A stretch of DNA of 64,000 nt from Antedon mediterranea. Its lineage: Eukaryota > Animalia > Echinodermata. This document shows, piece by piece, positions 29,240 through 56,158 of the stretch (positions are counted from its first letter, which is position 1; each line of letters starts with the position of its first letter). Below the pieces are notes generated by a model, which saw only the letters and a list, made by a program, of their open reading frames with translations, had not been told where the DNA came from and did no database searches. The DNA is taken from the NCBI RefSeq assembly GCF_964355755.1, contig NC_092675.1, forward strand, positions 8,055,812 through 8,119,811. The letters are read 5' to 3'. The position numbers were made by a program, and so were the translations under genes.

Positions 29240-32200
29240 CATGCTTGACAAGCATGATTTTCTCATCCTTTAATTGACTGTTGGGTGGTATAAACTAACA
29301 TTATGAATATAATAAAATTGGTATGTCATATACCGGTACTTAATCTATTGACTAACTAAATAAGAACAACATTTCCGATGAATGATAATTCTAATGGTGT
29401 TAATAATATATTCTTGTTAATATTTTAGGTTTAATAATATGACCTTTCTCTCCACTGGAGTAAATCCAAAACCAATGATAATATGTATTTTCATGTTTTT
29501 TTCTTTGTATTTTACTGTAGCAAGGTACCCAGGTTAATAATATATTTTTAAAAGAGATGCTATCAAAACATGCATTATTTCAATCTGTAAACTTGCAACA
29601 TTCGTATAATCTGTTTAATAAATGTCAATTATATATACTATTGGGATTGACTCACAGCTGTTCCCGCTATGCATAATTTTTCTGAAAAGTCCAGCGCCCT
29701 CAGACGGAGGAGAGTGGTAGCAGACGACGTTCACAGTGATTACGGAAACCGCGCGAGCCTTGAATTCTATTTACATTGTCAACGAAATCGGCGATTATGA
29801 TAACACTTTTATCGTCGAAGTGTAAACATCATATATAAACATTTTGATTAGCGTATTCATACATGTTATTATAAAATAATCATTCTACCTAAGATTTAGG
29901 GTGAAATATTAAATAAATTATTATAAAGTGTATTTTTTCTAAATAAATCAACGACTATATATACGGAAGTAAAACAATAACAACGATGAACAGCGCCACA
30001 TAGTTGTAAACAACGTAAGTTATTAAAATTATCCTTGAATCTGTACTTATTTTGTTTGCAATCCTAATTATTAAGTAATACTATATTTACTATGTGATAA
30101 ATCAATATTATATAAATAAATAGGTTTAGGTTTGGTAAAAAAGTGACGGTAAAAAAATTGAATAAATCGCCCGAATGTACACCTCTCTTTCCGAACGAAC
30201 TGTGTAACGGTTGGGTACACACGAATTAGAGGCGCGGGGATGACCGCGCCGAGCATACCTAATATGCTGGCCTAAACTCTAGGCCTAGGCATTGATTGTT
30301 AAGTTATTTTGTAGTCTACCTTGTCGAAAGTTGAAAGTGTTAATTTTCTGATATATCTATATGTTTATAAATTATTTTGTATGTTGCAAGTAGGCTGGTA
30401 TGGTAATATTTATTATACTGAGGTAGGCCTACATTTTGAATATGTACCATTGTATAGCCTATTACTGTAGGCCAAAGACTATATCAACATTTTTTTTGTT
30501 TTGCAGATCATGGAGTTTCACGAAAAGGCGCTGTCGTCAATATGTTTCTGTTGTGGGAAAAAAATTAAACGTAATGATGAAAGATATAATTTAGAAAATA
30601 TGAAAATCACACCACAATCATTTGACGTTGAAAATATTAATCTTCCCAAAGCACTATGTTCAACCTGCCATTCCAAATTTTGTAAGGGACATATTTTGAC
30701 ACCTTATCAGTTTCAATCGCATAGCGAAAATCATTGTGTAACCTGTTACTTGTATACAAATCAGCAAAGACCAGGCCCAAGACCGAAGCCTTCTAATCTA
30801 AGAAGCAAGAGTGGTATATTTTCAAAAGATATCACTCCACTTCCTGCAGTCAGTCGGCAGTTTGTTATTTTTAACCAAGTTGATGAAATCTATCAGTGCA
30901 ATATTTGCAACAACCTGTTGTCACTTGATAGCATCCAGACACCCTGTTCCCATTTCTTTTGTACCTTCTGTGTCAACAAATTATTTAATGCCCTTTCGAA
31001 ACCATCAATTCCTTGTTTTATTTGCGGCTTCAATTTTAACAAAGATAATTTGATCAAAATTCCAACAATTTTAGAACATTCATTATCTTCTGTTTCACTT
31101 AAATGTCGCATATGCAAGGAAGAGTTATGTTTAATGGGAACAGTAGGCCATAGTTGTAAGACCGACAAAGAACAGGCATTTACAGTATGACTATTCAAAA
31201 TGCTGTGCATCAAATTGAAGAAACTACAGCTGCAAGTAATGTGTACCCACAGAACTGACAAAATTGGCTCATAAACTGGTACACAAAGATGTGACAAATG
31301 GGCAAATGTCTTTAAAAACTCAAGGGCGGGTAAGATTTAAATTCTGTTTTAAAATCAAATGCATCTTATAATATTTTTACAAAAATTAATACACTAAATG
31401 TTACTACAGTATTTTCTTCTGTATATTAATTCATAATTTTTTAATAATAAACTAGCCACTCAAGATGGTTACTAAATCACAAGCCTCCACAACTGTAGTG
31501 ACAACAGAAATTAAACAACAACAAATGGATGGGATGAAATGTCTTGCAATTATGAATGCATGCAAGATTAATTGGTCTCAGCAAAGAGTATTACGGAGGT
31601 ACAGTACTGTGTGTTTACAAATAAAATTACCCAACTTTAATTATAGAAAGTTCAAAACCTATTTGTATACAGGCCGCAATCTGAAATGTGTGTTAAATAA
31701 ATCCTTTTGAACCAAAGTAGCTTTGAATTATGTAAAAAATAATTGTTACACATACTACTGTATATTAATATATTTTTAATTAGTAGCTGAATCACAATTT
31801 TAAACATTTTTCTATAAATATTTTAGATTTTGCCCAGGCTTGTTTGCATCTGAGAGGGAAATGAGGTCAATACAAGAAAAGATAGTTGGGGACTACTTAG
31901 TTAAATCTTTAGAGTATATGTTTGTGAAGAGAGAATGCGCAACTTCAATTGGAGGCCTGGTCCTGGAAGAGGTACCTGTTGTTAGGTTGACAAACATAAA
32001 ACAGTTGGTGTTAGACTACTTAAATCAGTATGACATGTAAGTTCAACTTTATTTCATTATTATTCTATTATGGTTAACAATTGTACTGTATTATATCTTT
32101 ATGTAACCTTTATACAATTTTAGATGCCAAATTTCTCACGTATACAATTATTTATTTAGGTCAGAACAACCGTTGATGGGGATATTTTTTTGAAATTTGG

Positions 32201-32427
32201 TGGGGACAAAGGTGGGAATTCAACGAAATTCGAGCTCCAACTTTGTTGTTTGGAGAAACCAAATGCTTTGTACAACATAATGGTTGTACTTGTCTTTGAG
32301 GCTCCAGACTTGACAGTCAATATCGAGAAGGGACTAGACCTTATATTAGATGAAATAATGGAGTTGGAAGGATGTCAGTGGACTTCCCCAACAACACAAC
32401 AGTAAGTTAATGCAATCATCAAACCAT

Positions 32428-32602
32428 CAGGGAATAATTTCGCCAGTGTAGCATAGCAAAAAGCTATACAAAACAACCTTTTTGCTACAGATTTTTAAAT
32501 TTATGTAGCAAAAAATACAATACAAAACTATGTTTCTCGACTCAAAAATCAGTTTGATTAGCAATATTGCTAAACAAAATTTAAAAATGAAATTTTCCCC
32601 TG
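32428..32602. mobile_element. Small TIR element in a transposase intron
   Basis: CAGGGAATAATTTC...GAAATTTTCCCCTG, flanked by an ACCAT direct repeat. Confidence 0.55.
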
Positions 32603-33420
32603 ACCATGATTTATATTTTTTTAAACCCTACTGTATAAAGAAGAATAAACTACTATCATGTAATTTGGCAATGATTTTAATGACAGATAGTTAATTTTGT
32701 GTCTAATATATAAAATTAATTTTTTTTCAGAACCCACAAAATCAGATTGTTCGTGTTTGGGGATTATGACTTCCTTTGCCGGTTATATGGATTGATTGGG
32801 CCAAATGGTGAGTACATTTTGTTTATGTTTTTTTTGTTTGTTATGTTTATTTCACCAAATTGTAATTTCAGAATTGTATTCCTTTCAGGAAAGTACAGTT
32901 GTATTTACTGCTATGCCAGCCAAGAGGACATAAAGCATAATAAGAAGCCAAGTGAAAACAGGTGCCTTAATTCCTATAATAAGGACTTCAAGTGCTTTGT
33001 GGACCATGGCAGTGACCCCAAGAAAAGTAAATTAATATCGCACAGCATCATCAGGCCCTACATGCTAGGTATTGAATTAGACAAAGTGAGTAAACAATCT
33101 TCACAATTATTGTAGGCGTCGACTTATTGTTATTAACATTTTTGGATTGATAAAGGTTACAAAAAAAATATTAAAATTTGCATTACATAATTATCTATTT
33201 ACAAACTACAGTATACTAAAAACCAATAAATACACTGATTATGTTATAATAACATCTAGTACGAAACTTACTCCAAATAATGAGTGAGTCATGATTCAAC
33301 ATTTCGGTCTTTATCAGGAATGATGATGATCCAAATAAAAATCGACTTCTCATTTAAATTTGGAATAAGCTTTATACTATGTAGTAAACAACAATCTAAC
33401 ATAAAAGTTAAACAGTTATA

Positions 33421-34206
33421 CAGTCGACTCCGCCTAAGTCGAATTCGCGTAAGTCGAAAAATCGCGAAAGTCGAATTTTTAGGAAAGTCCCAATTCTTTC
33501 CTATACATTACTGTGTAATTTTTATTTGTAAGTCGAATTTTTCTAAGTCGAAATTCGTCTAAGTCGACGTCTTTTTGCGGTCCGAATACACACATTCTTT
33601 AGTAATTTATATCGTATAAGTCGAAGTCACAAATTACGCGGCAACAACGCGCTAAAAAAGCCGATGAAACGTACGTAATTCGATAAACAAACAACAGAGG
33701 GGATAATGTGGGACCCTATCGGTTCTCTCAAGCAGGTTGTATAGTATAGGCGGCGTCCTACAACTCGCGCTAGTGTATGTGTATGAGTTGTTTTAGATCG
33801 AGTTGAGAACTTGAGCGGCGTTTTGTGGGTACCTAATTTGTGCTAGACAGATTGTAATAAACAATGGATACCGATTTCGAATAAAAACCGAAATGTATTT
33901 ATTATACGTTTTTGTATTGTTTCGGGCTTAAACCATAAAAGAAAATACAGTTTATCATTGCCGATAAAGAGGCTTAGCATTTATTAGGCCCAGCTAGCTA
34001 GCTAAGCAAACTCAATTCAAGAAGGCTCATCGCGTGGTGGGCCGCGATCGCGACAGGGCAGGGTCCACTAGGCCTAGCCATAGCGCGGCCAGCGAGTGAA
34101 CCTAGGCCTAGGCCTAGCATTTTTTTGACAAATCTGTAAGTCGAAGTTCGCGTAACTCGAATTTTTATACCGGTCCCATTAGATTCGACTTAGGCGGAGT
34201 CGACTG
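33421..34206. mobile_element. Tc1/mariner (pogo/Tigger-type) MITE in a transposase intron
   Basis: TIR CAGTCGACTCCGCCTAAGTCGAA at both ends, TA duplication, repeated subterminal TAAGTCGAA. Confidence 0.88.
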
Positions 34207-36437
34207 TATTATTATTATTAGTATCATAACATTAACATGTATTACCTTTATTCTCCATTATATAATTCCATGTATTACAAAATTAATATTTTCCAGGTAT
34301 CAATTCCAGCACTTCATATCTCGCTAGGTCTCTTTAAGAAGATGTATGATCAACTTGAAAAAGAAGTTCATAACTTAGATCTCATCATATTTAATATGAG
34401 ACAGGATGGTGCTATTCAGATTGGTAAAAACTTTTTTTTTCTAATGAAATGTTTACATTTTTCCAGAAAAATTTCCAATTCATGATCACTATAAATTAAC
34501 TTAATATCATTAGGTGGTAACCTGCCAGACTTTGAGAAGACAATTTTGCAAGCAGCATCAAAGCGAAGTTCATGTACACAAAAAATCAGTTCTGTAAATG
34601 AGGAGCTTGATGAACTGAGAAATACACTCTCTCTGTCACTAGTGAAGCACAATGATGCTAACGAAATTTCTGAAATCACCAACAAAATATATCTGAAAGA
34701 ACAGAGTGTTAAAGACTCGGTTAGTTAATTTTATTTGTTTAGTTTACTACACTATTCAATTAGAAATAATCACTAAAAGCAAAATATGTATTTGTGTTTC
34801 AGCAATCTACTATGAATGAAGAAATCAAATATGCAACCGGACCATTATGTACAGAAATGGACAACATTTTAACAGCAAACAAAATACCCCGACAACAATA
34901 TCACGGGAAAAGTTTTGTTGGCAATCATGTGTATAGAGCATGCAAAGTAAGTACTAAAATGGTCAAAGTCTCTTAATTAAAGAAATTATAAATATCTAAT
35001 TACAAATTAAATTGACATACAGATGAATAACTTTCTTGCATACGCATTGTCCAACACTCAAAAATACCATTCTTTTCTCAGTTTAACATTATAGACAAGT
35101 TAATGGATGGATTGGAAATTGTATTGAAGCAACAGATGCATCATTGCAAAGACAAACACACAACCATTCTAGCGACAAAACTGTCGAAGATAAGACAGTC
35201 ATTTACGCCACCATTTAAACTGTTTAGTCAAGTTCATGCATGCATCAACCATACACGATTCATTGATGATCCTGAAATTGATGCATATGGTAAGTCCAAA
35301 ATAATTTTTTTTTGCAAAATCATGTTTAAAATAATGAAAAGGGGCATTGCAACCATCAAGAATAACAGATATACATAAGAATAACTCTTAATAATTTTTA
35401 ATTTCTTCAATATAGAACATGCAATAAAGTCATTCTCTGTAGAGTACAGAAAGATTGCCCCTGGTGTGGTACAGCCGAAACTCCACATGTTGGAGCATCA
35501 CTCTGTACCATTTATGCGTCGATGGAAGGTGGGCATCGGCCTACTTGCAGAACAAGGTGGAGAATTAATCCACTCAGAGTTCAACAGACGGAAAAGGGCC
35601 GTTCATGGTATAAGAAATAATCTTGATCAGCTAATGTCTATAATGAAATCCCATCTGACATTTACCTCTCCAGAAATACAGCAGGTACAAATACCAATCA
35701 AGAAATCCAGAAAATCAGAAGACTGAATAAAGAATGAAAACATGGGGATTTGTAAAATATTGTACATACATATGTGATTAAACAAGAAAATAAAATTTAC
35801 CTCAGGGCTTTAATTTGATGATCTGGTATACACGCTCATCATACTTGGTACTGTTGGATTCAATTTGACTTCCTCTTTCACAAGTTCAGTTTCAAAACCC
35901 AAATGTGAAGAACAATTTAAAAAAAAACATTTAAAAACAAATTATACTACAGTATTTTATTCCAAATTTTCAATTTTATAGTTTGCCGTACTGTATGATG
36001 TAAGACAAAAAATGTCTTGATAAATTTCAATTCAATTTGTTGATTATTATTAAAATCAATATTTTTCATTTTTGCAATTAAATAGCCATTTAAAAAAAAA
36101 GGACAGAATTGGTTATGGTTTTATATATTAGTATACTTAAATTTAATGTGTGCTGTAAAACAATAAAGTGTTTTTTAATAGAAAAAATGACTTACCAAAC
36201 ACCAATTGTTTTTCACATTTCTAACAATAGCATACCATTTCTTCGTTTTCCGGTACTACTAGGGCCTAGGCCTAAACAAAAATAGTTATATTGTATCATT
36301 ATGTATTATGAATATATATGGACTGGTACATGGAATGTGAATATAATGTTACTACAGTGTAAATAAATTTGTTGTTGCATGGTTAATAAATGTTTCACTA
36401 GGCTAGCCTACTACTACTACTACCATAGTTTACTAAC

Positions 36438-37391
36438 GGTAGCCGATCACTCCGGCCGCGCTTCACTCCGGCCGCCGTATCAGTTTAGCGCGATGTTATG
36501 CACTCCGGCCGCTATTCAATTCGACTTCCTGTGCAAAGGGGCCGTTAGTATGGAGCGCCCATATCTACGTTTTCTATACTGTTCAGTGTTATAACAAATT
36601 CTTGGTGAATTTAAATGGAACTAGTTGAATATTTATTAGCAACAATTTTACTTGTTTCATTAACAATAACATTCAAAGAAGTTGGAACTGCTTTTTCTTT
36701 CAAACTAAACTTAACTTAATTAAATTCAATAATAAAATAATAATCAAATACCCGTCTAATTAATGCTTGAATAACAATATTTAATTTCTTTCTATGTACA
36801 TTTATTTTTATAGCTTTACATTTATTAACATTAAAAATTAGTTAAAACCCTTATTTTTATAACACTTTATCTTGCCAGTACCCATACTTACTAATTATAG
36901 TTAATAACAATATTTACAATATTAATTAATTTATTTCAAATAATCAAATATCCGTCTAATTAATGTTACCTGGAATTGTATCAAGAATTAATATATCATT
37001 TTTGTACAGTCCAATTTACAATGATTTTATATTTTAATTTATATATGATAAAAATAATATGACATATAGGGTACATTGCAATAAATTACATTAATTAATC
37101 ACATTACAATTAATATACTAGCCTATTACATTGGATAAAACACATAAATTATTTTGTTCTAGCATTAGACCTAATTTAAAACACTTGTGATGTTGTTGTG
37201 ATCCTGAAAGAGAAAAAATATACTGTATTATTACAAATGTTTATTTTGATTCTCTACAAAAAACGTGTCTCGGTTGTAAAAGACTCATTGGGCGCTCCAT
37301 AGCTGCGGCCGGAATGAATCGCGGCCGGAATGAATCGCGGCCGGATTTGAAGCGCGGCCGGAGTGAAGAGCGGCCGGAGTGATCTGTATTC
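36438..37391. mobile_element. Mutator/fold-back-like MITE
   Basis: 8-bp duplication TTACTAAC (36430-36437 and 37392-37399). TIRs are built from repeated CACTCCGGCCGC units plus ATGGAGCGCCCA; AT-rich interior. Confidence 0.8.
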
Positions 37392-38048
37392 TTACTAACT
37401 AGGCCTCCAAGCTTAGCCAGTAGTAGAATTAGGCCTGGAATTTAATCTCATCAAAATTTATTGTTTGTATGTGACTTGTAATTGTATTGTAAAATATAAA
37501 AATCCCTTACATCCACGACCAGTTAAACTATTCTCTCTACTCACTAAAACTAGGCCTAGCCACAGCTACACCGGGTAGGCCTAGTACTACTACAACAGTA
37601 GTAGAGTAGTACTACCCGGGGGCCTATAGACCGGCAGCCCAGAGACATTTGGTTAGATGAGCTAGGTACCAATATCTGACTATTTGAGTGTGTTGGGGGT
37701 CACTTGAAGTGAATGAAAATGGGAGTCTGCCGGGTACCCCCTGCTGCGTCTAGACCGGGGGGACCCCGAAACGTGCTAAAAAATCGGCACAGGTTAGATG
37801 AGAGAGATACCACCTAATTTTACCACCATGGGATGCCCATTGGCATCCTTATAACAGTATCACAAACGACAGACTTTTTCTCTGCTGCAAAAGGCCCGCC
37901 AGACCCCCCGAGGGAGGGCCTAAAATGGGGTTAGCATAGATGAGTGAGGTACCACTCAAAATCAATTCCAAACGAACAAGTTGTGTTCATACAATACTAA
38001 ATGGATAACAACAGACTAATTGTCTGCTGCACCGCAAGTGCGAGACAC

Positions 38049-38590
38049 CCTAAAGTTAGACTAGAGGCCCCCCTTCCCCCAACTAACCCAGCTTAGATAT
38101 TGTAGATACCACCAGCAACCAATGTTATATGATTTAGCACATGTAGGCAATACCAAATGACCTATTACAGACTATCTGTACACTGCCTTGGCCCTGGCAG
38201 ACCCCTCTAAAGTTAGACTAGAGACCCCTCTTTCCCCAACTAGCCCAGCTTAGATATTGTAGATACCACCAGCAACCAATGTTATATGATTTAGCACATT
38301 GTAAGCAATCACCAAATGACCTATTACAAACTATCTGTACACTGCCTTGGCCCTGGCAGACCCCTCTAAAGTTCGACTAGAGACTCCATTCCCCCAACTG
38401 GCCTAGCTTAGATCTTGTAGATACCACCAGCAACCAATGTTATAATTATGATTTAGCACATTGTAAGCAATACCAAATGACCTATAACAGACTATCTGTA
38501 CACTGCCTTGGCACTGGCAGACCCCTCTAAAGTTTCCCCATTTACCCCAAGTATATAGCTTACCTTAGATATTGTAGATACCACCAGCAG
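38049..38590. repeat. Tandem repeat of about 157 bp (about 3.5 copies), mirrored at about 42115-42662
   Basis: The anchor CTTAGAT.TTGTAGATACCACCAGCA recurs at 38092, 38249, 38407 and 38564; more diverged units lie upstream. Confidence 0.85.
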
Positions 38591-39144
38591 CAAAAAAAAA
38601 CCACCCAAAACAACATATTTAATTGAATAAAGTTTAACTTTAACCGAACTAACACAAAACAATTGAAAATATATCACATCAATGACGATAAAATGACCAT
38701 TACCATTTTAAAGGGAAAAATAGTTTAAGAGTTTCACTTCAAACTTAGGCCTATATAAGCCAAATATAAACAAGTACGGATTCGAGTAAATTTAGCATTC
38801 CTGTTAAGAATTGTGAGGATCTGGAATTCCTTGCCTTTGAATGTCAAAGATACATTCGTCTGTAACTCTTGCAACCTATTTTAAGAGAAAGCTTAGTAAT
38901 CACCTTAATCAAATTCAGGATTGTAGTAACTTAATCCAAAGTGATTTGATTAATTAATAGTTGGTAATTTTAAATGCTGTATATTATAATCTTAATCCTC
39001 TATATATATTTATATATATAAATCCAAAGGCAAATAACTGAAAAAATGACAATGCTGTGGGTATCAGTGGCTGAATCTCAATGGAGATACAAACAAAAAG
39101 TGAAAAGCTAAATCAAAAGGATAAAGTAAAACAGCCAGAAACGT

Positions 39145-39187
39145 TAGCAGAGCTTTCGGGCAACACTAGCCCTTCATCATTGCAAGT
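39145..39187 (-). ncRNA. Minimal type-I hammerhead ribozyme in the Penelope pseudo-LTR (sense copy, core C>A)
   Basis: Minus strand reads ACTTGCA-ATGATGA-A-GGGC-TAGTGTT-GCCC-GAAA-GCTC-TGC. Confidence 0.6.
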
Positions 39188-39334
39188 GAAGGATAAGAGC
39201 TGGCAAGTGCTGCCTGGGTGGACAGGAATAAAAGAAATACAACAAAAGGAGACAGGGTGGAGTCTGAATAAGAGTAGAAAACAAGGAAGGTAGCTTGGTA
39301 GAGATACAGTATAAACAATTTTGGAATGAAACTA

Positions 39335-39450
39335 AACATGGCCAACAGCTATAAGTCGCGTGCTAAAACGCATAGTGATACCGGACCGACAGACAGACCG
39401 ACAGACCGCCGACATAGTGAACTATAGAGTCGCGTCCACGCGACTAAAAA
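39335..39450. mobile_element. Short HINE/DINE-1-like element inside the Penelope 3' region
   Basis: Same head, microsatellite and AGTCGCGTCCACGCGACT hairpin as 19246-20084. Confidence 0.75.
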
Positions 39451-39484
39451 CAGCTTAAATGGTGGTTAATATTGAAACTTAAAT

Positions 39485-41330
39485 TTAGGTAGACAATGGA
39501 ATAATTTTACCAACCTGGGAGTATGTTTCTAATGTTAAGTACAAAAGGTTTTGTGGTTTTAAGTTGTAATTCCCAGTGGTTTTCCTTGTCTTTGCAAGTT
39601 TTGTCGCTCCATTTGACACATGGAATATTGCAATAACTCTGAAATTTGTTATCGAGTGACCAGATGAATTAAAATGTTCGGCTATAGGTTGAACAAGCTT
39701 TAATGTGTTGATAGCTGATCTGTGTTGTGTCATTCTCATACGGAGAGTGTTTTTTGTTTCTCCGACGTACTGTTTGCCACAAATATTACAGTATATGAGA
39801 TAAATGACGTTTTTGGTTAGACAATTAATTGATTGTCTTATCCGAAAAATGCGGCCAGTTTGGTTACTCTTACATTTTTCAGTAGAATCAACCAATGAAC
39901 AAGTTTTGCAAGATTTGCCGCAAAGGTGACTGCCCAAATTTTGACTGTCATGAGAGTTAATTTCACTCTTACATTTGGATCTGACTAATATATCACGAAG
40001 GTTGGGAGGTCTACGAAATGCAATAATGGGTGGTTCCGGAAAAACAGTCCTGAGACGTTCTGTGGACTGTAGAATGGGCATATGTTTCTCAATAAATTAA
40101 TAGCCCCGTAATGGAGGCAACCTAGGTTGATAGGTTTGTAATTTCTACTCCGGAGATGTCCGGTTAGTTCTTCGGTACGATTCTGAAAATCTAAATCTGA
40201 AGAACAGATACGTCTAATAGGTAATGCTTTACTGTTCGGTATGTTTTTAGTACAATGTTGGGGATGACAACTGCTAGGGAGCAGGTACATATTTTTATCA
40301 GTGGATTTACGGAATAGGTCAGTTTTGAGAGTACCATTTTCTATGGTCACTATAGTGTCCACAAAATCAACGCTACTAGTGGATTTGGTAACTGTAAATC
40401 TTAGGATCGATGGAGTGTTTTTTTTTACCATCACAGAAACAGATTTTGCCACCTTATCCGCAATTTCCGGGGTGGGTTCCGTTGTGAGTTTACGATATAT
40501 AATGAAGCTGTCTTAAGGATTCCTCTTAATAAAATTTGATGTCCATAGCAACAGTGGCAGGACCTTTATCAGCGGGTTTAATGATGATATCATTACACTG
40601 ACGCAATTTGGCAATGGCCTGCCTCTCTTGTTTTGAGATTGTCACGTTTATCTGGACTCGGGACGTAGTTTTGTACATCCTCCTCAATAGCCTGGATAAA
40701 TGTTTCTAAAGCTGGACAACGATTTTTAGGTGGATTCCAGGAACTTTTTGGTTTAAATTTGTTAACGTTGCCTTCGTTTTGTGTGGTGCTGCTGTCTGAA
40801 TCAGCAAAATATTCACGTAATCGTAATCTTCTAGAAAAAGACTCTATATCCAAAGATACTTGTTGTGCGCCGACCTGCCTTGGTTTTGGGCAGAATTTAA
40901 GTCCTCGGGAAGGAAGTTTTTTCTCTCCTTCGGAAAGTCGACAATTAATTTCAACAACTGAATCAGAGGTGTTGCTCTGATTCTTGTTATATGTCCCAAC
41001 GAACCTTCTGCAGGGTTTCCTAAAAGCCCTGAAGTCATCCGAAGGTAGAGTCATTTGTGTTGAAATGACCAAGTCTGCATGGTAGACCAAATTTGTGATG
41101 TTCCCTTCGGGCCATTACCGTTGATTGTTTACGGCAGTCATTGGCGATAATCCTGAATTTGTTTTGAAACTAGGATGCAGGAAGTTCTCTTTTCAACTTC
41201 TTAGTTCTAGAGTGAATTTCAACGTCAAACTCAGTGAGGATTTTGCGGCAATTGTCAATTTGGATCTCATTGAGATCTCTAATTTTGTTCAAATACCTTT
41301 TCAAATAGATACAGTACTACATATCTACAT
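39485..41330 (-). mobile_element. Penelope-like retroelement, internally deleted (RT core missing), with GIY-YIG endonuclease
   Basis: Fragments LSEGEKKLPSRGLKFCP, IIIKPADKG, RFT...VDFVDTIV...TDLFRKST...SSCHPQH...IRRICS, and NVIYLIYCNICGKQYVGET...RMTQHR (GIY-YIG). No YxDD segment between the fragments. Confidence 0.88.
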
Positions 41331-41542
41331 AAATAAAGTACATAAAATAAAATTATATATATTTATAATTTTTTTTTTTTATATTTTTTTCGATCGAGAT
41401 ACGGTAGTGTTCAGTCTATCTGAAGATCGTTTAACGTAAAACACCGTGTAATAGACGTCCGTGTTCCATCTACTTTATAAAAATATATATTCGCTCTTGA
41501 TTCCAATTGAGCACGTTTGCAGCCTCAACGCATCTATATAAG

Positions 41543-41585
41543 ACTTGCACTGATGAAGGGCTAGTGTTGCGCGAAAGCTCTGCTA
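41543..41585 (+). ncRNA. Minimal type-I hammerhead ribozyme (inverted copy, intact CUGAUGA core, one stem-II mismatch)
   Basis: ACTTGCA-CTGATGA-A-GGGC-TAGTGTT-GCGC-GAAA-GCTC-TGC. Stem I is GCA/TGC; the stem III region is the palindrome AGCT. Confidence 0.65.
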
Positions 41586-44194
41586 ACTTTTCTGGCTGTT
41601 TACTTTATCGTTTTGATTTAGCTTTTCGCTTTTTTTTTGTATCTCCATTGAGATCCAGCCACTGATACCCACAGCATTGTCATTTTTTCAGTAATTTGCC
41701 TTTGGATTTATAAATATATATATATACATATGAATACAGGATTAAGATTATAATATACAGCATTTAAAATTACCCACTATTAATTAATCAAATCACTTAA
41801 GATTAAGTTACTACAATCCTGAATTTGATTAGGGTGATTACTAAGCTTTCTCTCAAAATATGTCCAAGAGTTACAGACGGATGTATCTTTGACATCCAAA
41901 GGCAAGGAATGCTAAATTTACCCGAATCCATACTTGTTATATATATTTGGCTTATAATATATAAGTTTTAATTGAAACTCTTAAACTATTTTCCCCTTTA
42001 GAATGGTAATGGTCATTTTATCGTCATTGATGTGATATATTTTCAATTGTTTTGTGTTAGTTCGATTAAAGTTAAACTTTATTCAATTAAACATGTTGTT
42101 TTGGGTGGTTATTTTTTTGCTGCTGGTGGTATCTACAATATCTAAGGTAGGCTATATACTTGGGGTAAATGGGGGAACTTTAGAGGGGTCTGCCAGTGCC
42201 AAGGCAGTGTACAGATAGTCTGTTATAGGTCATTTTGTATTGCTTACAATGTGCTAAATCATAATTATAACATTGGTTGCTGGTGGTATCAACAATATCT
42301 AAGCTAGGCCAGTTGGGGGAATGGAGTCTCTAGTCGAACTTTAGAGGGGTCTGCCAGGGTCAAGGCAGTGTACAGATAGTTTGTAATAGGTCATTTGGTG
42401 ATTGCTTACAATGTGCTAAATCATATAACATTGGTTGCTGGTGGTATCTACAATATCTAAGCTGGGCTAGTTGGGGAAAGAGGGTCTCTAATCTAACTTT
42501 AGAGGGGTCTGCCAGGGCCAAGGCAGTGTTCAGATAGTCTGTAATAGGTCATTTGGTATTGCTTACAATGTGCTAAATCATATAACATTGGTTGCTGGTG
42601 GTATCTACAATATCTAAGCTGGGTTAGTTGGGGGAAGGGGGGCCTCTAGTCTAACTTTAGGGTGTCTCGCACTTGCGGTGCAGCAGACAATTAGTCTGTT
42701 GTTATCCATTTAGTATTGTATGAACACAACTTGTTCGTTTGGAATTGATTTTGAGTGGTACCTCACTCATCTATGCTAACCCCATTTTAGGCCCTCCCTC
42801 GGGGGGGGGGGGGAGTCTGGCGGGCCTTTTGCAGCAGAGAAAAAGTCTGTCGTTTGTGATACTGTTATAAGGATGCCAATGGGCATCCCATGGTGGTAAA
42901 ATTAGGTGGTATCTCTCTCATCTAACCTGTGCCGATTTTTTAGCACGTTTCGGGGTCCCCCCGGTCTAGACGCAGCAGGGGGTACCCGGCAGACTCCCAT
43001 TTTCATTCACTTCAAGTGACCCCCAACACACTCAAATAGTCAGATATTGGTACCTAGCTCATCTAACCAAATGTCTCTGGGCTGCCGGTCTACTATTTAG
43101 ACTAGGCCTAGCCCCCCCCCCCCCCCCCCTACCCTCCTAGTCAATTTATTAAACAACTGTGGTTAAATTTCCACAACGATTCTTATGATTGAATGGGCCT
43201 AGGCCTAGACCAGGTTCAATGTGCGAAATCGTAAGTCTCTAGACACAGTAGTTTCGAGACGTCCGCGTGAAGCTGAGGCTATACTAGTCAGCCAGCCACG
43301 GAATACACCAATCTCTAAAAAATGTTGTTATTCGTTTTTTTCAACGTCACCTTTTGATATCTCCCCTACCACAAGCTTCACAAATAACTAAGTTACCAAC
43401 TATTACTAAGGGTTTTCTATGAAAATTAGGTTTTAAAAAGATATACAAAAACACATTTACTTACATTTCTAATCGCGTCAGCTACATAAATAAGGTGCGA
43501 AATTGGGTTAATTTATGATTAAATGCCCGCCCTGAAGAACCATGTGATTAATTGTGAAAAACATCTCACAGCGTCATAAGGCTTTGTTTCTTCATGAATA
43601 TTCATGATTTCAATTATTTACTTCTCTGATTACGTTCTCATTGGCTATTTATGTTTACTAATTTTATGCACGATTGCTTCTCCTTGCCACACGTGTGATA
43701 GGTATTGCTTGTTTGTTTATATAACCACTCCACTAACGTTGGGGGCGCTTCGGTTTATGTCTGTGGACTGTACCGGACGCTAGAAAAGTAAAATAACATA
43801 CCCGAATGCAACTCATTGTTTTGTGGCGAGGCAAGCGACGTCATTTAGTAACTATAATTTAATAAAGGCTTAAAAGTCTGAAAATTAAAAAAAAAAGATA
43901 AGGAAAATAGAAAGAAAAAGAGAACAACAAAAATAAAATTATAAAATGAAAAACAGAAAATAAAAAAGAGAAGAAAAAAAATAGAAAACTAACAATTAAA
44001 AAAGAAGACCAAAAAGAGGAAAGAAAACACAGAAAAGAAGAATAAAAGAAAGAAATAAGAAAATAAAAAGTGCTTTATAGGTTATTAACGTCACACAAAA
44101 CAATAAGACTCGTATAATACTTTAATTCAACAGTTGGTCCACGTTTAATAGTTGCACGTTCTTCGCGAATACTGGGTATTCGATATTTGAATTT

Positions 44195-47040
44195 ATCATA
44201 TCATAATTATATCATATCATTTATTTCGCCAATATACAGAACAGTACAAAAAAAAAACAATACAAAAGTAAGTCAATGAGGCCGGATATTAACCTAAAAG
44301 TTACAAATAAAAATAACCGTCGAGAGGCTCTCCACATCGAAATACTTACATAAAATGAATAATACATGGATTCTATTAAAATTGAGATAAAACTATAAAA
44401 TTCAGCAACGTGTTTTTATAAAAAAATTGTTAATTTAAAAAGATAGAATTAAGAAAATATCTTTAAAATATACATATGTTCAGATTAAAACAGATTGTTA
44501 AAATATTTCTTAAGGCTATGCTTAAAACAGTTTATATTAATTAAAAGTTGATCGCAGAGATCCGCAGGCAGATCTCTAAAATGTCTAACAAAAAAATTAA
44601 AGACAGAGTTATGAAATAAATCAGTCCGGGCTATAAAATTATTGCGCAACTTAAGGTTATTAACATGTCTGCAATTAATAGATAAATATTTAAAAACATT
44701 AACATCATATAATTTGTACATACATTTGGTAACAAAATTAATACATAAATACCTAATACGATTCTTAATGGACATCAGATTAAGGCGTTTCAAACGTTCA
44801 GGGTAAGGGAGACTGGCTGATCTTGGGAAGCATGTACGGGTGACCCTCCTTTGGACAGCTTCAAGAGCAGCGATGTCTTTTTTAAGAAAGGGGATCCAGG
44901 CAGGTAAACCGTAAGCAATATATGGTCTAACTAACGATATATATAGTCGCAATATAATAGCTTTATCACGACATTTGACAATACGTCTCACAAAACCAAA
45001 CATGCGATTAGATTTGGATTTAACATATTGGACATGATCAGCCCAAGTGAGTTTGCGATTCAGGTGAATTCCAAGATATTTAATGGAATTCGTAACGGAC
45101 AATCTATCATCTCCAATAAAATAATCACATGCTTGTTCAAGGCGACTGTTAGATCTAGTTATGTGCATCACAAAACATTTGTCAGTATTTAGTAGCATTT
45201 TGTTCGTCACACACCAGTTGTTAATAGCATGAAGATCCAACTGCAAAATCATTTCATCATTATCATTATGGTTATCTTTATCTTTGTTTTTGTTTCCGAT
45301 GGCTCTGTATATGAGAGTATCATCAGCATATTGTTGTATCTGTGATTCAATGCAGGAGGGGAGATCGGATACAAAGAGATTAAAGAGGATTGGCCCAATC
45401 ACTGATCCATGAGGAACCCCAGATTTTAACAATATATTCTCGGAAGTGGAGCCCCTAAATGTAACTCTTTGAGATCTACAGGATAGGTAGGATTTAAACC
45501 AGTCCAGCATTTAATCACAGATACCAAAATTATGTAATTTACTTAACAGAATCTTATGGCTAATTTTATCAAAAGCTTTCCGCCAATCGAGAAAAATCGC
45601 ATCGATATGGGGGGCGGAGAACGCTCATCAAGTATTTTAGACCAATCAGTTATAACATCTGTAAGTAAGGTGGTACAAGACCTACCCCTCAAGAAGCGAT
45701 GTTGTTTCTCGGAGAGAAGTGTATTTTCTTCAAGAAAAGATAGTAACTTTTAACTAACAACTCTCTCAAGCAATTTACCAATTGTAGAACATAAGGAAAT
45801 CGGTCTATAATTAGAAACATCACTATAGTCACCTGACTTATGGATTGGAATGATGTTGGCTGCCTTCATTTCAATGGGAAACACACCAGTGCTGAGAGAT
45901 AGATTAAATATTTTACATAATGGTTCAGTTGTGTAAATAGCAGCAATTTTAATCATAGTTGTGGTTATTCCATCAGGTCCAGGAGATTTACCTGTTTTTA
46001 GTTTGTTAATAACAGATATTATCTCAGCACCAGTGGTTTGGATATCAGTGAATTTGGGGTAGCCAGCATGCAAAATACAAGAATTATTCAAAAGGTGGTC
46101 AGGGTCGTCTTGAGAAAAATTAGCTGAGAATCTTTTATTGAAGGCTCAGCTATGATCTTTGGGTTGTTGACACAATTATCCTCAATGACAAAGGTATCAG
46201 TGCCGGGTTTAGCTCTGGAGCTTCTAACGAAGGACCAGAACTGTTTACAATGGTCGTTTTTTAAGGAAAGGTTCTTTAGATAACTTTTATATGATTTTTT
46301 AATTTTAGATTTCAAGTCATTACGACTACGTTTGTATCTATCCCACTTGTCCTTATTTACAGACCTAATAGCTGCTTTATAAAATCTATTCTTTTTTCTA
46401 ATTAAACTAAGAATCTCCCTTGAGATCCAAGTTTTTTAGGGCATCTTTTGGCCGACCTTAGGGGTACAACATCATTAATAGCTGCAATAAATTTACATTT
46501 AAAGTTTAACCATAACTCATTCACGTCAGTGGTATCACAGTTCCAGTTAATATTTGCGAATTTGTCAATAAAACGTTGAGGACAAATTTTAGAATAATCA
46601 TAAAAAGTACCCGCTGGTCTTGAAATGTTCTCCTTTGAGATACGAAGTTTGAAGGACTCCTTCGTGATCACTGTCGACACCTGGGTGAGGTTGAATTTCA
46701 GCTACCATGTCAGTACTACTAGAGTAAACATGATCGATAATTGTATTAGCCAAATTCTTATTGTAATGCGTGTAAAAATTAACACATTGCCTTAGATTTA
46801 AGACGTCTATTGTGTTTTACATATTTCGTTGTTTCGTTGAAATTGTGCCAGTAGATTGAAAATTAATGTTAAGGTCACCTGCAATAATTATTAAACTGTA
46901 CAAATTGGCGTCCACTAACACTTGATCGACACATTCCTGGAGTTTTTCGAAGAAATCCACTCTACTACCCGGAGGTCTGTACAGTGTCCCTGCTAAAATA
47001 GTCCAGTTAGGCCATGGGCTGAACATCAAAATTGTTACTT
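44195..47040 (-). mobile_element. Degenerate CR1/L2-clade LINE (APE + RT)
   Basis: Frameshifted ORFs carry GTLYRPPG and IAGDLN (APE), and KSPGPDGI, NYRPISL, SGVPHGSVIGP and QYADD (RT). The 3' end has AATAAA plus an (ATATG)n-like tail near 44195-44225. Confidence 0.9.
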
Positions 47041-51184: not shown

Positions 51185-54100
51185 ATGGCTAGGGATATTG
51201 ATTTGCCCGAAATACCCGGCGGTATGCCTAAAGATATGATGCTCGAATATTTTCGAATGAAGTTCGAGGCCGAAAACAAAAAGTTAGAATTACAATACCA
51301 ACAAGACCAATTAAAAGCAGATATAGAGCTAAGAAAAATTGAATTACAAGAAAGAGTGAAAATGATGGAATTAGAAAATAGGTCTAGCTACAGTAATGCT
51401 AGGAATATAGTAGATGAAATGAAGGTAAAGGTTCCTACTTTGAAGGAATCAGATGATATTGATATATATATTTTAGAACATTTGAACACTTGGCAGAAGC
51501 CACAGGTTGGGATAAGAATACGTGGTCCGCTAGGTTAGCACCTGAACTGTCTGGTAAAGCTAGGACAGCATATGCATCCTTAACCGTAAAAGAATGTGTG
51601 GATTATGATACCTTAAAGAAGGCAATCTTAGAAAAGTATGATGTGTCCACAGAGACTTACTGATTTAAATTTAGAAATTCAAATAGAGTTAAAGATATGT
51701 CCATCAGGGAATGGCTGAATGAGCTCTCCCATTATTTAAAATGTTGGATGAAATGTGCTAATGTAAAAGAAGATGATGCTGCAGGCATTATTGAAATGAT
51801 TATAATGGAATAGGCACTTGATAAAATGCCTGAAGATCTGAGGCTTTATCTTAGAGATAACCAAGTAAATAAGAGCTATGATATGGCTATGATAGCCGAT
51901 GATTATATAGCTAATAGAGGTGGCCGTGGCTATTGGAATGCCGTAAATTCTGAAAATAAGCCTACGTATTATAAGGGCCAAGAAAATAGTAAACCTAAGA
52001 ATAGTACGACTCAGAATAACCCTGGAGCTAGGCAGCAAGGATACAATAGGTATCGCGGAAGGGAAGGCAAATTCCATAACTATGGTAGAAATTTCCAACA
52101 GAGAGAACCTTCAAATGAATGGATTAATGGCCTAAGCTTTAATTGTAAGGAGAAGGGACATAAAATAGGGGATTGTCCTAAGATGGTAGCAAAAGGAAAG
52201 ACTAGTGACACTAAGAAGGGCCCGAATGTGAAAGATGGCTTAAGATGTGAAGGAATAAAATCAGATAGACCCCAAGTAGTTATGGATAGTGTAGAAAATA
52301 AAATGGAGAAGTGTACAATACCAGGAAAATTAGAAGGACAGGATATAACTATGCTAAGAGACTCGGGATGTACCCAGTCAGCTGTTAAGGAAAGTCTAGT
52401 GCCTAACAAATGTTACTTGCCAGGAAAATTGGTTACGTTAAGAGGTATAGGAGGCGATATTACCGTCCCCTTAGCTGAGGTAGCTATAGAAAGTAAGATA
52501 GTGACAGGAAAAGTGATTGTAGCCGTAATCGAAGGATTACAGAGGGACATGTTATTGGGTCATGATTTGGACCAGAATTGTGGGGAAACAATGGCTAAAG
52601 AAATGTTCGTCCTAACTAGGGAGCAAGCCAGAATAGAAAATGATGTTAGAATACAAGACGAAATGACATTGTTAGGGAAAGATAATAACTTTAAGCCGAT
52701 AGAAGAGCCGCCTAAAGAAACTAATGTACAATTGTTGAAAACAGTAGTAAATGACAACAAAGTAAATAAAACTAAGTGTTTAGATGATATGAATGGAACA
52801 GAAATGAATAATTTGTTTGACGAAAATGAGGATAAAGCTAAAGATAAAACAGTCAAACGTAAAACTTATGAACAACAGCACAAGCTGAACCTAACTAAAC
52901 AAGAACTGATCAAATTGCAAACTAAGGATGACTCACTCAAAGGAGTGTTTGACAGGGTAGTCCCTATAGAAGAAATAGGTCAGGTTTCTTTATGAGACAA
53001 GGTATATTGATGAGAAATTGGAGTAGTATTAAAGATAAGAATAACCAAGTGGAACAGATTGTATTACCCACTCAGTGTAGACAGGGTGTATTACACTTAG
53101 GTCATATTGTGCCATTTGCAGGTCACATGGGTGTTGAGAAAACTAAAAGTAGGGTCCTGAACCAATTCTATTGGCCAGGTATATTTAAAGATGTGGTAGT
53201 CTATTGTAAAGTCTGTAAGGAATGCCAAAAGGTAGATAAGGGTAAAAGTAAAAGGAAACATACTTTGATACCATTACCGATTATAAGTACACCGTTTAAA
53301 CGTATAGCGATAGACATTGTTGGACCCTTATCTAGAACAAGCCGTAATAACAAATATATGCTTACTATAATTGACCATGCTACGAGATACCCGGATGCTA
53401 TCCCGTTACCCAATGTTAGAGCTGAAACAGTAGCCAGGGCTCTAATAGAAGTCTTTACTAGAGTATGATTACCCGAAGAGATTGTACATGATCAAGGAAC
53501 TAATTTCATGTCTTCAATTATGCAATCTATATGTAGTATGTTGGGGATTAATAAATTAAAGACTACAGTGTACCACCCCCAAAGCAATGGGCTTGTTGAA
53601 AGGTTTCACTGTACATTGAAAAATATGATAAGGACACTTACAGTTAAGCAAAGAAAAAATTGGGATAACTACATACCCCCCTTTCTGTTTGCATACAGAG
53701 AAGTTCCTAGTAAAGCGACGGGCCATTCACCTTTTAAATTGCTTTATGGTAGAGAGGTGAGGGGACCCTTGAGTTTACTCAAAAGTAATTGGGTAGAAGA
53801 TGAAGAAACATCTACTGATGTTATCAAATACATGTTAGACATAAGAGAAAAAATGGAGGAATTAATGAAAGATGCTAATGTAAACAAACTTGAACAACAA
53901 GAAATTATGTCCCACAATTATAACAAGAATGCTATTTATAGAGAATTTGTAGAAGGGGACAAAGTGTTGATATTCCTTCCAGTAGGAAATAGTAAGTTAG
54001 ACAGTAAATGGCAAGGCCCCTTCACTGTTACAAAAAAGGTCAATGATGTAAATTATGAAATATACATAGGAGGTAGAAGAAAAGAAAAACAAATTCTACA

Positions 54101-55647
54101 TGGATGTTATGGTATGATAAAGTAGAAATAAGTAAAGATGGTTATTATGTAGTAACAAATGTTCAGTCGATAGAAGAAGTAGACTTAAATGAAACAATCC
54201 ATGACAATGAGTTAGATAGTGAAATAGACATAGGATTGTCTTATCATCAATCACAAACATGGAGAGATGTTAACGTTAGTAGTAATTTAAATGATACACA
54301 AACTAAACAATTAACAGAATTGTTAAAGTACCAACAGAATGTATTCTCGGATGTACCAGGTAGAACTCACTTAGTGACACATGAAATTAAGACTAATGGT
54401 GAAATGCCTATAAGGCATAGGGCATATAGAACGCCCCAAGCATTAAAGGGTAAATTGAAAGAGGAATTAGATACTATGTTGGCTATGGGTATAATAGAAC
54501 CTACAGTTAGTGCCTATGCTGCACCTATTATTGCCGTGAAGAAAGGCCAGAATCAAATTAGAATGGTGACAGATTTTAGATCACTAAATAAGACGACACA
54601 ATTTGACCCTTATGTTATGCCTCGCATAGACGAAATGTTGGATGAGGTATCATCCGCAATATACATAACTACGTTAGATCTAACTAAAGGATTTTACCAG
54701 GTGCCTCTGGATCCTAAGACCAAAGACAAATCAGCATTTATTACACAATTTGGACAGTATTGTTACAATGTACTTCCATTTGGTATGCAAAATAGCTCTA
54801 GTACTTTCCAAAGATTAATGGATAAGGTATTACAAGGTACTGAGGGATATGCTAAGGCATATATAGATGACATATGTATTTATAGTCACTTTTTCATTTG
54901 AATGATGTATTAGAAAGATTAAGTAGTGCTGGATTGACAGCAAAGCCTTTGAAATGTAAAATTGCCTATGCACAGGTAGAATTTCTGGGGCATAAGATTG
55001 GTAATGGAGAAATTAGACCCATGATTGATAAGGTTGAGGCTGTGGAAAAGTTCCCCAGACCTTTGTCTAAGAAACAAGTCCGATCATTTCTCGGATTAAC
55101 TGGCTATTACAGAAAATTTGTACAGAACTATGCCGATATTGCTAAGCCATTGATTGATTTAACTTCAAAGAGTAAAAGTAATACCGTTAAGTGGAATGAA
55201 CAATGTGAAAATGCCTTTGTAACTTTAAAGAAACGACTTACTGATGATAATGTATTAAAAGCCCCAAATTTTGATAAGATGTTTATATTGCAAACCGATG
55301 CCTCAAATTATGGCATAGTTGCAGTGCTGAGCCAAATAGATGGTGAGGGTAATGATTATCCCATTGTGTACTTAAGTAGAAAGTTATCTGTACATGAGCA
55401 GAGATATTCTGTGCCAGAAAAAGAGTGCCTCTCTATTGTTTGGGCTATCAATAAACTTAAGTATTATCTGTATGGTTGTGAATTTCAAGTTCATACTGAC
55501 CACCAGGCATTGAGATGGATGGACTCAATGAAGGGTGCCAATGTTAGACTTATGAGATGGGCTCTGTTTTTACAAGGATATAAATTTAAAGTTATTTACA
55601 AGAAAGGATCATTAAATGGAAATGCAGATGGATTAAGCCGTGCATAA
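51185..55647 (+). pseudogene. Gypsy (Gmr1-like) gag-pol: gag/SCAN-like, zinc knuckle, protease, integrase, RT, RNase H; several stops and frameshifts
   Basis: Degenerate knuckle SFNCKEKGHKIGDC, protease LRDSGC, integrase HHCC with IAIDIVGP/HDQG/NGLVER, RT LDLTKGF...YIDD, RNase H QTDAS...EKEC...TDH...NADGLSR. Integrase precedes RT. Confidence 0.93.
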
Positions 55648-55748
55648 TAATATTATAGAGGTTTTATTTGTAGATAGTTTATAGTAAAATGGTTTTAAAT
55701 GTTAAATTTTTGGAAAGATTGACACAATCTTTTTCCCAAAAAGGGGAA

Positions 55749-56158
55749 TGTCATATTATTTATGTTCTGATTCCCTGTGTTTAGATTAGGATGCTTTAGA
55801 CCAGGTCCGCCTTATATTATTAGCCAATCAAAATCGTATAATTTTTGGAGGGAAAATGTTATCCTCCTCTGAAGCCTAAAATTTGCATGTCCAGTATAAA
55901 AGTGGAATGTAATAGATATTAGAAGGGAAGAGAGAATAAGATCAGAGTAGATAAACGGAAAGATGATAAAGAATATATTAAGGCTTGACTGGTAGTGGTA
56001 GAAAGATGTATTAATCGAATTACAAGGAATAAAAGTTCTAGTTGAGTTAAATATACTTTTTGTATGAGTTATCATTCAGTGACAGTGTACGTCGCGTGGA
56101 GTTATATATATACGCCTGAGAAAGCTCGGAACCAACTAAAATAATCACTAGGCCTACA
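55749..56158 (+). repeat. 3' LTR of the Gypsy element
   Basis: TG...CA ends, preceded by the polypurine tract AAAAAGGGGAA and followed by CCAGA (TSD). Nearly identical to the reverse complement of 59326-59728. Confidence 0.9.

What the first reader, a model, noticed from the sequence alone, without database searches (positions are those of the whole stretch)
29649..43769. RAG1-related transposon with RSS-like asymmetric bipartite ends
Seen: the only terminal inverted match is CACAG, the first 5 nt of the RSS heptamer CACAGTG, flanked by a 4-bp GACT duplication. Further in, both ends carry the same split motif AGCGCCC-N12-GAGTGGT in inverted orientation. It lies 35 bp from the left CACAG (29693-29718) but 11 bp from the right (43724-43749); the spacer sequences are not conserved. 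Known: Chapaev elements have CAC termini and 4-bp TSDs, and RAG/Transib/ProtoRAG ends use a terminal element plus a distal element with unequal spacers. Inference: this transposase may pair a long end with a short end, like the 12/23 rule, using a different distal signal. An ordinary TIR finder would miss this element.
Basis: partly seen in the sequence, partly recalled or inferred. Interest (0 to 1): 0.85.

Follow-up and report, generated by a model that had tools for sequence, protein, structure and literature searches.

The report
Broken Chapaev transposon, uneven ends
This is a broken copy of a feather-star jumping gene distantly related to the antibody-gene cutter RAG1; the 35-versus-11 unevenness of its ends likely comes from a deletion in this one copy, but its sister copies and many relatives have ends that differ by about one turn of the DNA helix, which suggests that the long/short end design behind the 12/23 rule is more widespread than has been described.

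Summary
The letters are exactly as reported, but the 35/11 architecture is not the family's. Contigs from four runs of one sample show sister copies whose right end is 15 bp longer and gives a perfect 12-bp terminal inverted repeat (CACAGCTGTTCC). The family spacing is 35/26, an offset of 9 bp. The element is a decayed Chapaev DNA transposon of a feather star (Chapa zinc finger, RING, DDE core, 4-bp duplication) with four nested insertions. In relatives from metagenome contigs, a 9-bp motif (GVCAYTTAG) lies about 18 bp from the 5' terminus and about 28 bp from the 3' terminus; 7 of 9 two-ended families pair short with long. Those relatives carry a domain that aligns with RAG1's nonamer-binding domain. 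The window's transposase lacks about 50 residues of that domain, and its ends lack that motif, so a RAG-style ruler is unlikely here. Its own offset motif is probably real (p about 0.001-0.06) but is altered in some copies. Uneven ends are published for Transib and RAG-like elements; I did not find them described for Chapaev in seven searches. The scan noted Chapaev long/short ends before on other DNA (e1-8149024). No pairing rule was tested.

The parts
29649..29652 (.). Left copy of the 4-bp target site duplication (GACT)
   Evidence: the unique left-flank contig ends at 29681 in 4 of 4 runs, placing the start of shared sequence at about 29652 (inferred from 31-mers)
29653..29664 (+). Left terminal inverted repeat, 12 bp (CACAGCTGTTCC)
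   Evidence: Top score in the window for a TIR profile trained only on relatives (15.4; next best 14.9). Equals the reverse complement of the sister copies' right terminus
29693..29718 (+). Left subterminal split motif, starting 40 bp from the terminus (long end)
   Evidence: changed at 29696, 29698 and 29700 in one contig per run
30510..35726 (+). Chapaev transposase gene, about 11 exons: Chapa zinc finger, RING, shortened NBD-like segment, DDE core (GGDKGG, FGDYDF, CIYC, LH, HMLEHH, EQGGE). Frameshifted in this copy after 31181 and 31245, with a deletion near 32173
   Evidence: The last exon is 100% identical to P0001 (Antedon mediterranea), 80% to P0002 and 57% to P0003. Contigs of other copies differ by indels at these places
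31300..31602 (+). GR|P...CLAIMN segment, about 50 residues shorter than in most relatives; the missing part matches the helices that align with RAG1's nonamer-binding domain
32428..32602 (.). Nested 175-bp high-copy MITE (CAGGG...CCCTG) with a 5-bp duplication ACCAT; absent from sister copies
   Evidence: Joint 32422-32603 in 4 of 4 runs, depth above 100,000 in X1; ends
33421..34206 (.). Nested MITE in an intron, CAGT...ACTG with TA duplication (Tc1/mariner-pogo type, label recalled)
   Evidence: 27-nt perfect inverted match
36445..37384 (.). Nested element with a 31-bp inverted repeat; duplication unclear
37627..43092 (.). Nested element with 1.55-kb inverted arms (94%), TAG...CTA termini and CTA duplication (Academ-like, label recalled), holding a decayed Penelope-like GIY-YIG fragment on the minus strand
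43724..43749 (-). Right subterminal split motif: 16 bp from the terminus in this copy, 31 bp in sister copies
43750..43765 (-). Damaged right terminus: keeps CACAG but is 15 bp shorter than in sister copies, which have the full 12-bp TIR
   Evidence: 18 loose letters behind 43762 in 4 of 4 runs; depth 78 vs 31 (X1) and 51 vs 23 (X3); this copy's end is confirmed exactly in X1 and X3
43766..43769 (.). Right copy of the target site duplication (GACT)
   Evidence: in X2 and X4 the flank contig begins exactly at 43766

Best explanation
This is a broken copy of a Chapaev cut-and-paste DNA transposon whose sister copies end in a 12-bp inverted repeat with a subterminal motif offset by 9 bp, and whose 24-bp offset in this copy likely comes from a 15-bp deletion just inside the right terminus. 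By analogy with RAG1 and Transib, an intact transposase dimer would bind the terminal 12 bp, cut next to CAC and insert with a 4-bp stagger (the duplication is shown; the chemistry is inferred). The AGCGCCC...GAGT site is probably an auxiliary binding site that makes the two ends unequal (about even odds). It is probably not read by a RAG-style nonamer-binding ruler, because this lineage has lost most of that domain together with the GVCAYTTAG motif that its relatives carry about 18 and 28 bp from their termini. The 12/23-like design is best seen in those relatives, not in this copy.
For: Family right end and TIR: (4 of 4 runs). Boundaries and several copies. Chapaev domains; the profile of relatives hits RAG1 at E 4.7e-12; folds of two relatives match RAG1 (Foldseek E 5e-13; Z 28.1, rmsd 3.6, 461 aligned). 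Hallmarks CAC...GTG and 3-4-bp TSD: PMC4079192 passage. Relatives: de novo motif at 17-19 in 13 of 20 5' ends and at 28-29 in 11 of 15 3' ends. Spacer identity 0.34 against 0.74 for the TIR and 0.80 for the motif across 9 long ends. NBD-like segment: 93-110 residues in 66 of 70 long relatives, about 49 in the window and in sea-urchin P0012; it aligns with RAG1 391-459. The window's ends score below 0 for the relatives' motif. Window-family offset of 9: p 0.012 (local score) and 0.0009 (17 of 26 identical) when offsets of 9-12 are fixed from the relatives.
Against: Sister copies are seen only as short contigs of one sample, so left and right ends cannot be paired by copy, and one letter (43759) is unknown. 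With offsets unrestricted, the family-type match has p 0.06, and the 26-bp window was chosen after the fact. Two of the first seven motif letters differ in one left-end variant. The long end is at the 5' side here but at the 3' side in most relatives; only two single ends (L020 left, L004 right) share the window's polarity. No empty site was seen. The folds are of relatives (P0036, P0048), not of the window's protein. The relatives' families come from a few assemblies and mostly one clade, so they are not independent.
Confidence: 0.75

Rival explanations
1. The family obeys a strict long/short pairing rule (40/31) through the AGCGCCC...GAGT site, read by a domain other than the NBD, such as the Chapa zinc finger, the C-terminal tail or a host factor.
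For: The 9-bp offset equals the AanRAGL 4/13 offset (PMC9435367) and is close to the relatives' 10-12; p 0.001-0.012 with preset offsets. L020 and L004, on the window's side of the tree, show the same reversed polarity.
Against: The NBD helices that enforce 12/23 in RAG are missing. The motif is altered in some copies. Invertebrate RAGL enzymes are described as relying on the terminal 15-17 bp (PMC7204232).
Confidence: 0.2
2. The AGCGCCC...GAGT match is chance or a functionless remnant, and the family works through its 12-bp TIR alone.
For: p 0.06 when offsets are unrestricted; no match in the 79 loci; variants inside the motif; no NBD to read it.
Against: 17 of 26 identities at a one-turn offset is rare in shuffles, and the polarity fits the tree.
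Confidence: 0.4
3. One reading: the family uses a CACAG terminus with 35- and 11-bp spacers. In a variant of this, this copy was cut at the inner CACAG that lies 11 bp inside the family's right terminus.
For: This copy's short end is real and carries a clean GACT duplication. An inner CACAG exists in the family end.
Against: The short end joins only this flank, and the commoner end has the full TIR. A cut at the inner CACAG would give a spacer of 15, not 11, so a second event would be needed.
Confidence: 0.05

Closest known systems
Chapaev DNA transposons, RING-bearing subgroups (Kapitonov and Jurka 2007, not read; described in PMC4411706 and PMC4079192, passages read)
   Same: Chapa domain followed by RING, DDE core with C(2)C, LH and H(4)H, CAC...GTG termini, 4-bp TSD.
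   Different: About 11 exons; NBD-like segment about 50 residues short; subterminal motif offset by 9 bp. I found no description of long/short ends for Chapaev in searches; Repbase Reports could not be read.
Transib families with RSS12/RSS23-like ends (Transib5, Transib2_AG; PMC1131882 passages) and Subgroup I Transibs (PMC9435367 passages)
   Same: RAG1-like catalytic fold, CAC termini, terminal element plus offset distal element, no RAG2.
   Different: Those have 5-bp TSDs, a heptamer plus A-rich nonamer, and the short end at the 5' side. Here: 4-bp TSD, 12-bp TIR, GC-rich distal motif, long end at the 5' side, Chapa and RING present.
AanRAGL (13 bp + 4/13 spacer + 10 bp; PMC9435367), PflRAGL-A (10-bp asymmetry; bioRxiv 2023.08.20.553239) and ProtoRAG (27/31; PMC8289069 abstract)
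   Same: Bipartite ends with unequal spacers; AanRAGL has the same 9-bp difference.
   Different: Those carry RAG2L; AanRAGL and PflRAGL-A have 5-bp TSDs; PflRAGL-A and ProtoRAG have an NBD. Here no RAG2L was found, and relatives' cores are only about 11-16% identical to RAG1 in structural alignments.
Vertebrate RAG1/RAG2 and the 12/23 RSS
   Same: Domain order (Chapa-like N-terminus, RING, core); in relatives, a spacer of fixed length and free sequence, differing by about one turn.
   Different: No nonamer, no RAG2, and most of the NBD-like domain is absent in this element; no pairing rule has been tested.

Membership tests
Chapaev | CAC...GTG termini with terminal inverted repeats | tested here: met
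   CACAG at both ends here; 12-bp perfect TIR in sister copies
Chapaev | 3-4-bp target site duplication | tested here: met
   GACT on both sides; the empty site was not seen
Chapaev | N-terminal Chapa zinc finger, with RING in some subgroups | tested here: met
   Exon 1 has H-x3-L-x3-C-x2-C-G and the later C-x2-C motifs, matched by eye to PMC1131882, plus RING. PF12560 was hit by relatives P0012, P0038, P0041, P0063 and P0068, but not by the window's exon 1
Chapaev | DDE core with C(2)C, LH and H(4)H motifs | tested here: met
   DUF1280 E 2e-10
Chapaev | Groups with named Repbase Chapaev transposases in a tree | not testable with these tools
   No Repbase library; the tree has only relatives found here
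Chapaev3 | 3-bp TWA duplication | tested here: not met
   4-bp GACT against PMC4079192
Transib / RAGL | 5-bp target site duplication | tested here: not met
   4 bp here; 4 bp and never 5 bp in 11 of 14 paired relatives, which were partly chosen on TSD
RAGL transposon | RAG2-like kelch gene inside the element | tested here: inconclusive
   No kelch or PHD hit in 13 frames scanned and no ORF of 100 aa or more in the non-nested remainder; small exons are not excluded
12/23-like system | Terminal element plus distal element whose spacers differ by about one turn | tested here: inconclusive
   Offset of 9 in the family ends, p 0.001-0.06; clearly met in relatives
12/23-like system | Nonamer-binding domain to read the distal element | tested here: not met
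   About 50 residues missing in the window gene, with no room for another exon; present in relatives
12/23-like system | Cleavage requires one long and one short end | not testable with these tools
   Needs a cleavage or transposition assay

The most novel reading that the evidence does not exclude
Chapaev transposons are a RAG2-free 12/23-type system: an NBD-like domain reads a GVCAYTTAG 'nonamer' placed about 18 bp from one terminus and 28 bp from the other, and enforces long/short pairing. That would date the one-turn rule to the Chapaev-Transib-RAG ancestor. An echinoderm lineage, which includes this element, lost the NBD helices and that motif, yet kept one-turn asymmetric ends with a new distal signal in reversed polarity, read by another domain.
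Probability: 0.3. Interest if true: 0.8.

Novelty: new variant of a known kind. Interest (0 to 1): 0.52.

Why it matters
How the 12/23 rule arose, and whether RAG2 is needed for it, is an open question in RAG evolution. Single-protein Chapaev transposases with an NBD-like domain and natural short/long ends give a direct test, and the NBD-less echinoderm lineage is a natural control. Some relatives are very young: the L066 family copies are 99.8% identical or more. The window's own copy is a poor substrate, and its most striking feature (35/11) is damage.

Tried and rejected
Empty site: no contig joins 29652 to 43770, and the left-flank contig runs into the element in 4 of 4 runs. The right-flank contig starts exactly at the first TSD base in X2 and X4, which an empty allele would cause, but this is only a hint; 561 loose-end rows were not shown. 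The CACAGTG at 29732-38 was rejected as a second terminus: a variant contig reads other letters across 29729-29820. The viral contigs scan gave 0 relatives among 37 pattern matches, and the genome contigs scan gave 0 loci. The window motif had no match in 79 of 79 loci. Exon 1 found no longer relatives among 550 candidates. P0003 alone matched no solved structure. A direct BLAST of exon 2 against P0048 was uninformative. IQ-TREE stopped on an option clash, so the tree is FastTree only (29 of 79 loci, 22 proteins and the window). A Fisher test of polarity by side (p 3e-5) overstates the case because the families are related. In L034 and L062 the 5' motif was not found at the short position. Earlier-findings look-ups by sequence, by place and by a second word set returned nothing. 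Yuan and Wessler 2011 was not held.
Full report
Observation. Every letter reported is present: the GACT duplication, the CACAG termini, and AGCGCCC-N12-GAGTGGT at 35 bp from the left CACAG and 11 bp from the right. The motif occurs only at these 2 places in the window at up to 3 mismatches, and a comparable double match arose in 6 of 3000 shuffles and 20 of 3000 random window pairs.

What lies inside. A gene of about 11 exons (30510-35726, plus strand) encodes a Chapa-type zinc finger, a RING finger and a DDE core. Its last exon is identical to a protein annotated in the feather star Antedon mediterranea, 80% identical to one from Anneissia japonica and 57% to one from Asterias rubens. A profile of 60 relatives hits RAG1 at E 4.7e-12, mostly over the N-terminal region. 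Predicted folds of two relatives match RAG1, ProtoRAG and HzTransib. Chapa plus RING, CAC...GTG and a 4-bp duplication define RING-bearing Chapaev elements (PMC4411706 and PMC4079192, passages). This copy has frameshifts where contigs of other copies differ by indels, and four nested insertions; without them it is about 6.7 kb. It sits about 410 bp downstream of a chitin-binding-domain exon of a host gene.

Sister copies. No genome was held, so I laid contigs of 4 runs of one sample on both ends. Depth rises several-fold inside the element at both boundaries; the tool warns that this is not a copy number. At the right end, 4 of 4 runs hold a contig that follows the window to 43762 and continues for 18 letters, ending in the reverse complement of the left terminal 12-mer. 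In X1 and X3 it is 2.2-2.5 times as deep as the contig with this copy's end. The family therefore has a perfect 12-bp TIR and a right spacer of 26. This copy is 15 bp shorter, most simply through one deletion (inferred). The offset is 9 bp, not 24. A TIR profile trained only on relatives ranks 29653 first in the window (15.4, next 14.9) and scores this copy's right end at -7.9. Against strict conservation of the motif, the contig over 43726 reads GAGTAGT, and a left-end variant changes two letters of AGCGCCC. The empty site was not seen.

Relatives. A metagenome scan kept the best 80 of 225 matches, giving 79 loci. Nine families had both ends; eight of the nine have 4-bp duplications, and one family has four copies with different flanks and four different duplications. 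In 7 of 9 families the best or tied-best subterminal match lies at +9 to +12; each alone is weak (p 0.005-0.94). I picked 35 non-redundant ends by TIR score, dropping same-family duplicates and most weaker candidates but keeping the two L020 ends; a few may not be true ends. Motif finding with free positions gave GVCAYTTAG at 17-19 in 13 of 20 5' ends and at 28-29 in 11 of 15 3' ends, one of them weak. Across 9 long ends the spacer is 34% identical, the TIR 74% and the motif 80%: fixed length and free sequence, as in an RSS. Two ends are reversed (L020 left at 28, L004 right at 18), and both lie on the window's side of the tree (FastTree support 0.94). These families come from few assemblies and are related, so the counts are not independent.

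The window's lineage differs. Its ends score below zero for the relatives' motif. The segment from GGQP/GRP to LSWSQ has 93-110 residues in 66 of 70 long relatives, and 96-107 in 17 of 19 loci with the motif. It has about 49 in the window and in the sea-urchin protein P0012, a member of the same clade. Two of the other short cases are N-terminally cut proteins and one has 85 residues. In the model of P0048 the segment forms three helices, and in several rows it aligns with RAG1 391-459, the nonamer-binding domain (rmsd 8-12 in those rows). The window's DNA has only a 125-bp intron there, and the listed indels of other copies show no large insertion. The family's own motif, at 40 and 31 bp from the termini, has p 0.06 with offsets free and p 0.012 or 0.0009 with offsets fixed at 9-12 from the relatives.

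How it likely works. Shown: ends, duplication, several copies, domains and the one-turn geometry in relatives. Inferred: a dimer binds the 12-bp TIR, cuts at CAC and inserts with a 4-bp stagger. In NBD-bearing relatives the NBD-like helices likely read GVCAYTTAG and may favour a short/long pair (my estimate about 50%). In this lineage the ruler is gone. The AGCGCCC...GAGT site is an auxiliary site at about even odds, and a strict pairing rule is unlikely (about 20%).

What is known. Unequal bipartite ends are in print for Transib5 and kin (PMC1131882, passages; PMC8355894, passages), for AanRAGL and Subgroup I Transibs (PMC9435367, passages), for PflRAGL-A (bioRxiv 2023.08.20.553239, passages) and for ProtoRAG (PMC8289069, abstract). 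The NBD enforces 12/23 in RAG, while invertebrate RAGL enzymes rely mainly on the terminal 15-17 bp (PMC7204232, passages). For Chapaev I found no such description in seven searches or in passages of PMC4079192, PMC3014272, PMC12730594 and bioRxiv 2026.08.26.747230. I read part 1 of 3 of the PMC4079192 supplement. Repbase Reports, Yuan and Wessler 2011 and bioRxiv supplements could not be read and may bear on novelty. The scan's note e1-8149024 already reported long/short Chapaev ends in another genome; my test on separately fetched loci agrees, though the loci may overlap with those it used. The labels Academ, pogo-type, hAT5, Penelope and Gmr1 are recalled, not tested.

Verdict. A real but damaged Chapaev copy. 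The headline 35/11 is damage. The durable results are the one-turn asymmetry of Chapaev ends, its link to an NBD-like domain, and an echinoderm lineage that lost both the domain and the standard motif. New variant of a known kind; interest 0.52.

Noticed in passing
window 37627-43092: Element with 1.55-kb inverted arms, each holding three 157-bp tandem units, TAG...CTA termini and a CTA duplication (Academ-like, recalled). It carries a decayed Penelope-like fragment with a GIY-YIG domain (39485-41114, minus strand) between the arms.
   Followed up: partly
window 32428-32602: 175-bp CAGGG...CCCTG MITE with a 5-bp duplication (hAT5-like, recalled); contig depth is thousands of times that of the flanks, and the empty site is shown by sister copies.
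   Followed up: partly
window 51814-55647: LTR retrotransposon pol with Gypsy-type domains in the order protease, integrase, reverse transcriptase, RNase H (Gmr1-like order, recalled), broken into several frames.
   Followed up: no
window 55748-59729: 396-bp inverted repeat, 99% complementary, with 3.2 kb between the arms.
   Followed up: no
window 1-29239: Host gene or genes with many EGF-like exons and chitin-binding (CBM_14) exons, one with 11 domains, and an internal duplication of about 10.6-11 kb.
   Followed up: no
window 44485-45510 and 61107-61931: Reverse transcriptase fragments on the minus strand.
   Followed up: no
L066:7711-12384, with L069, L070, L071: Very young Chapaev family (copies 99.8% identical or more), 4.7 kb, four copies each with a different 4-bp duplication, motif at 17 and 29; a good candidate for assays. 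Its reading frame was not checked.
   Followed up: partly
P0009: A second, distant Chapaev transposase (about 41% identical in the core) is annotated in the same species and is sister to this family in the tree.
   Followed up: no
L027, L029 ends: A second matching block (GGAAAC-like) lies about 16 bp beyond the distal motif at a 9-bp offset in L027, so a split distal signal also occurs in relatives.
   Followed up: no
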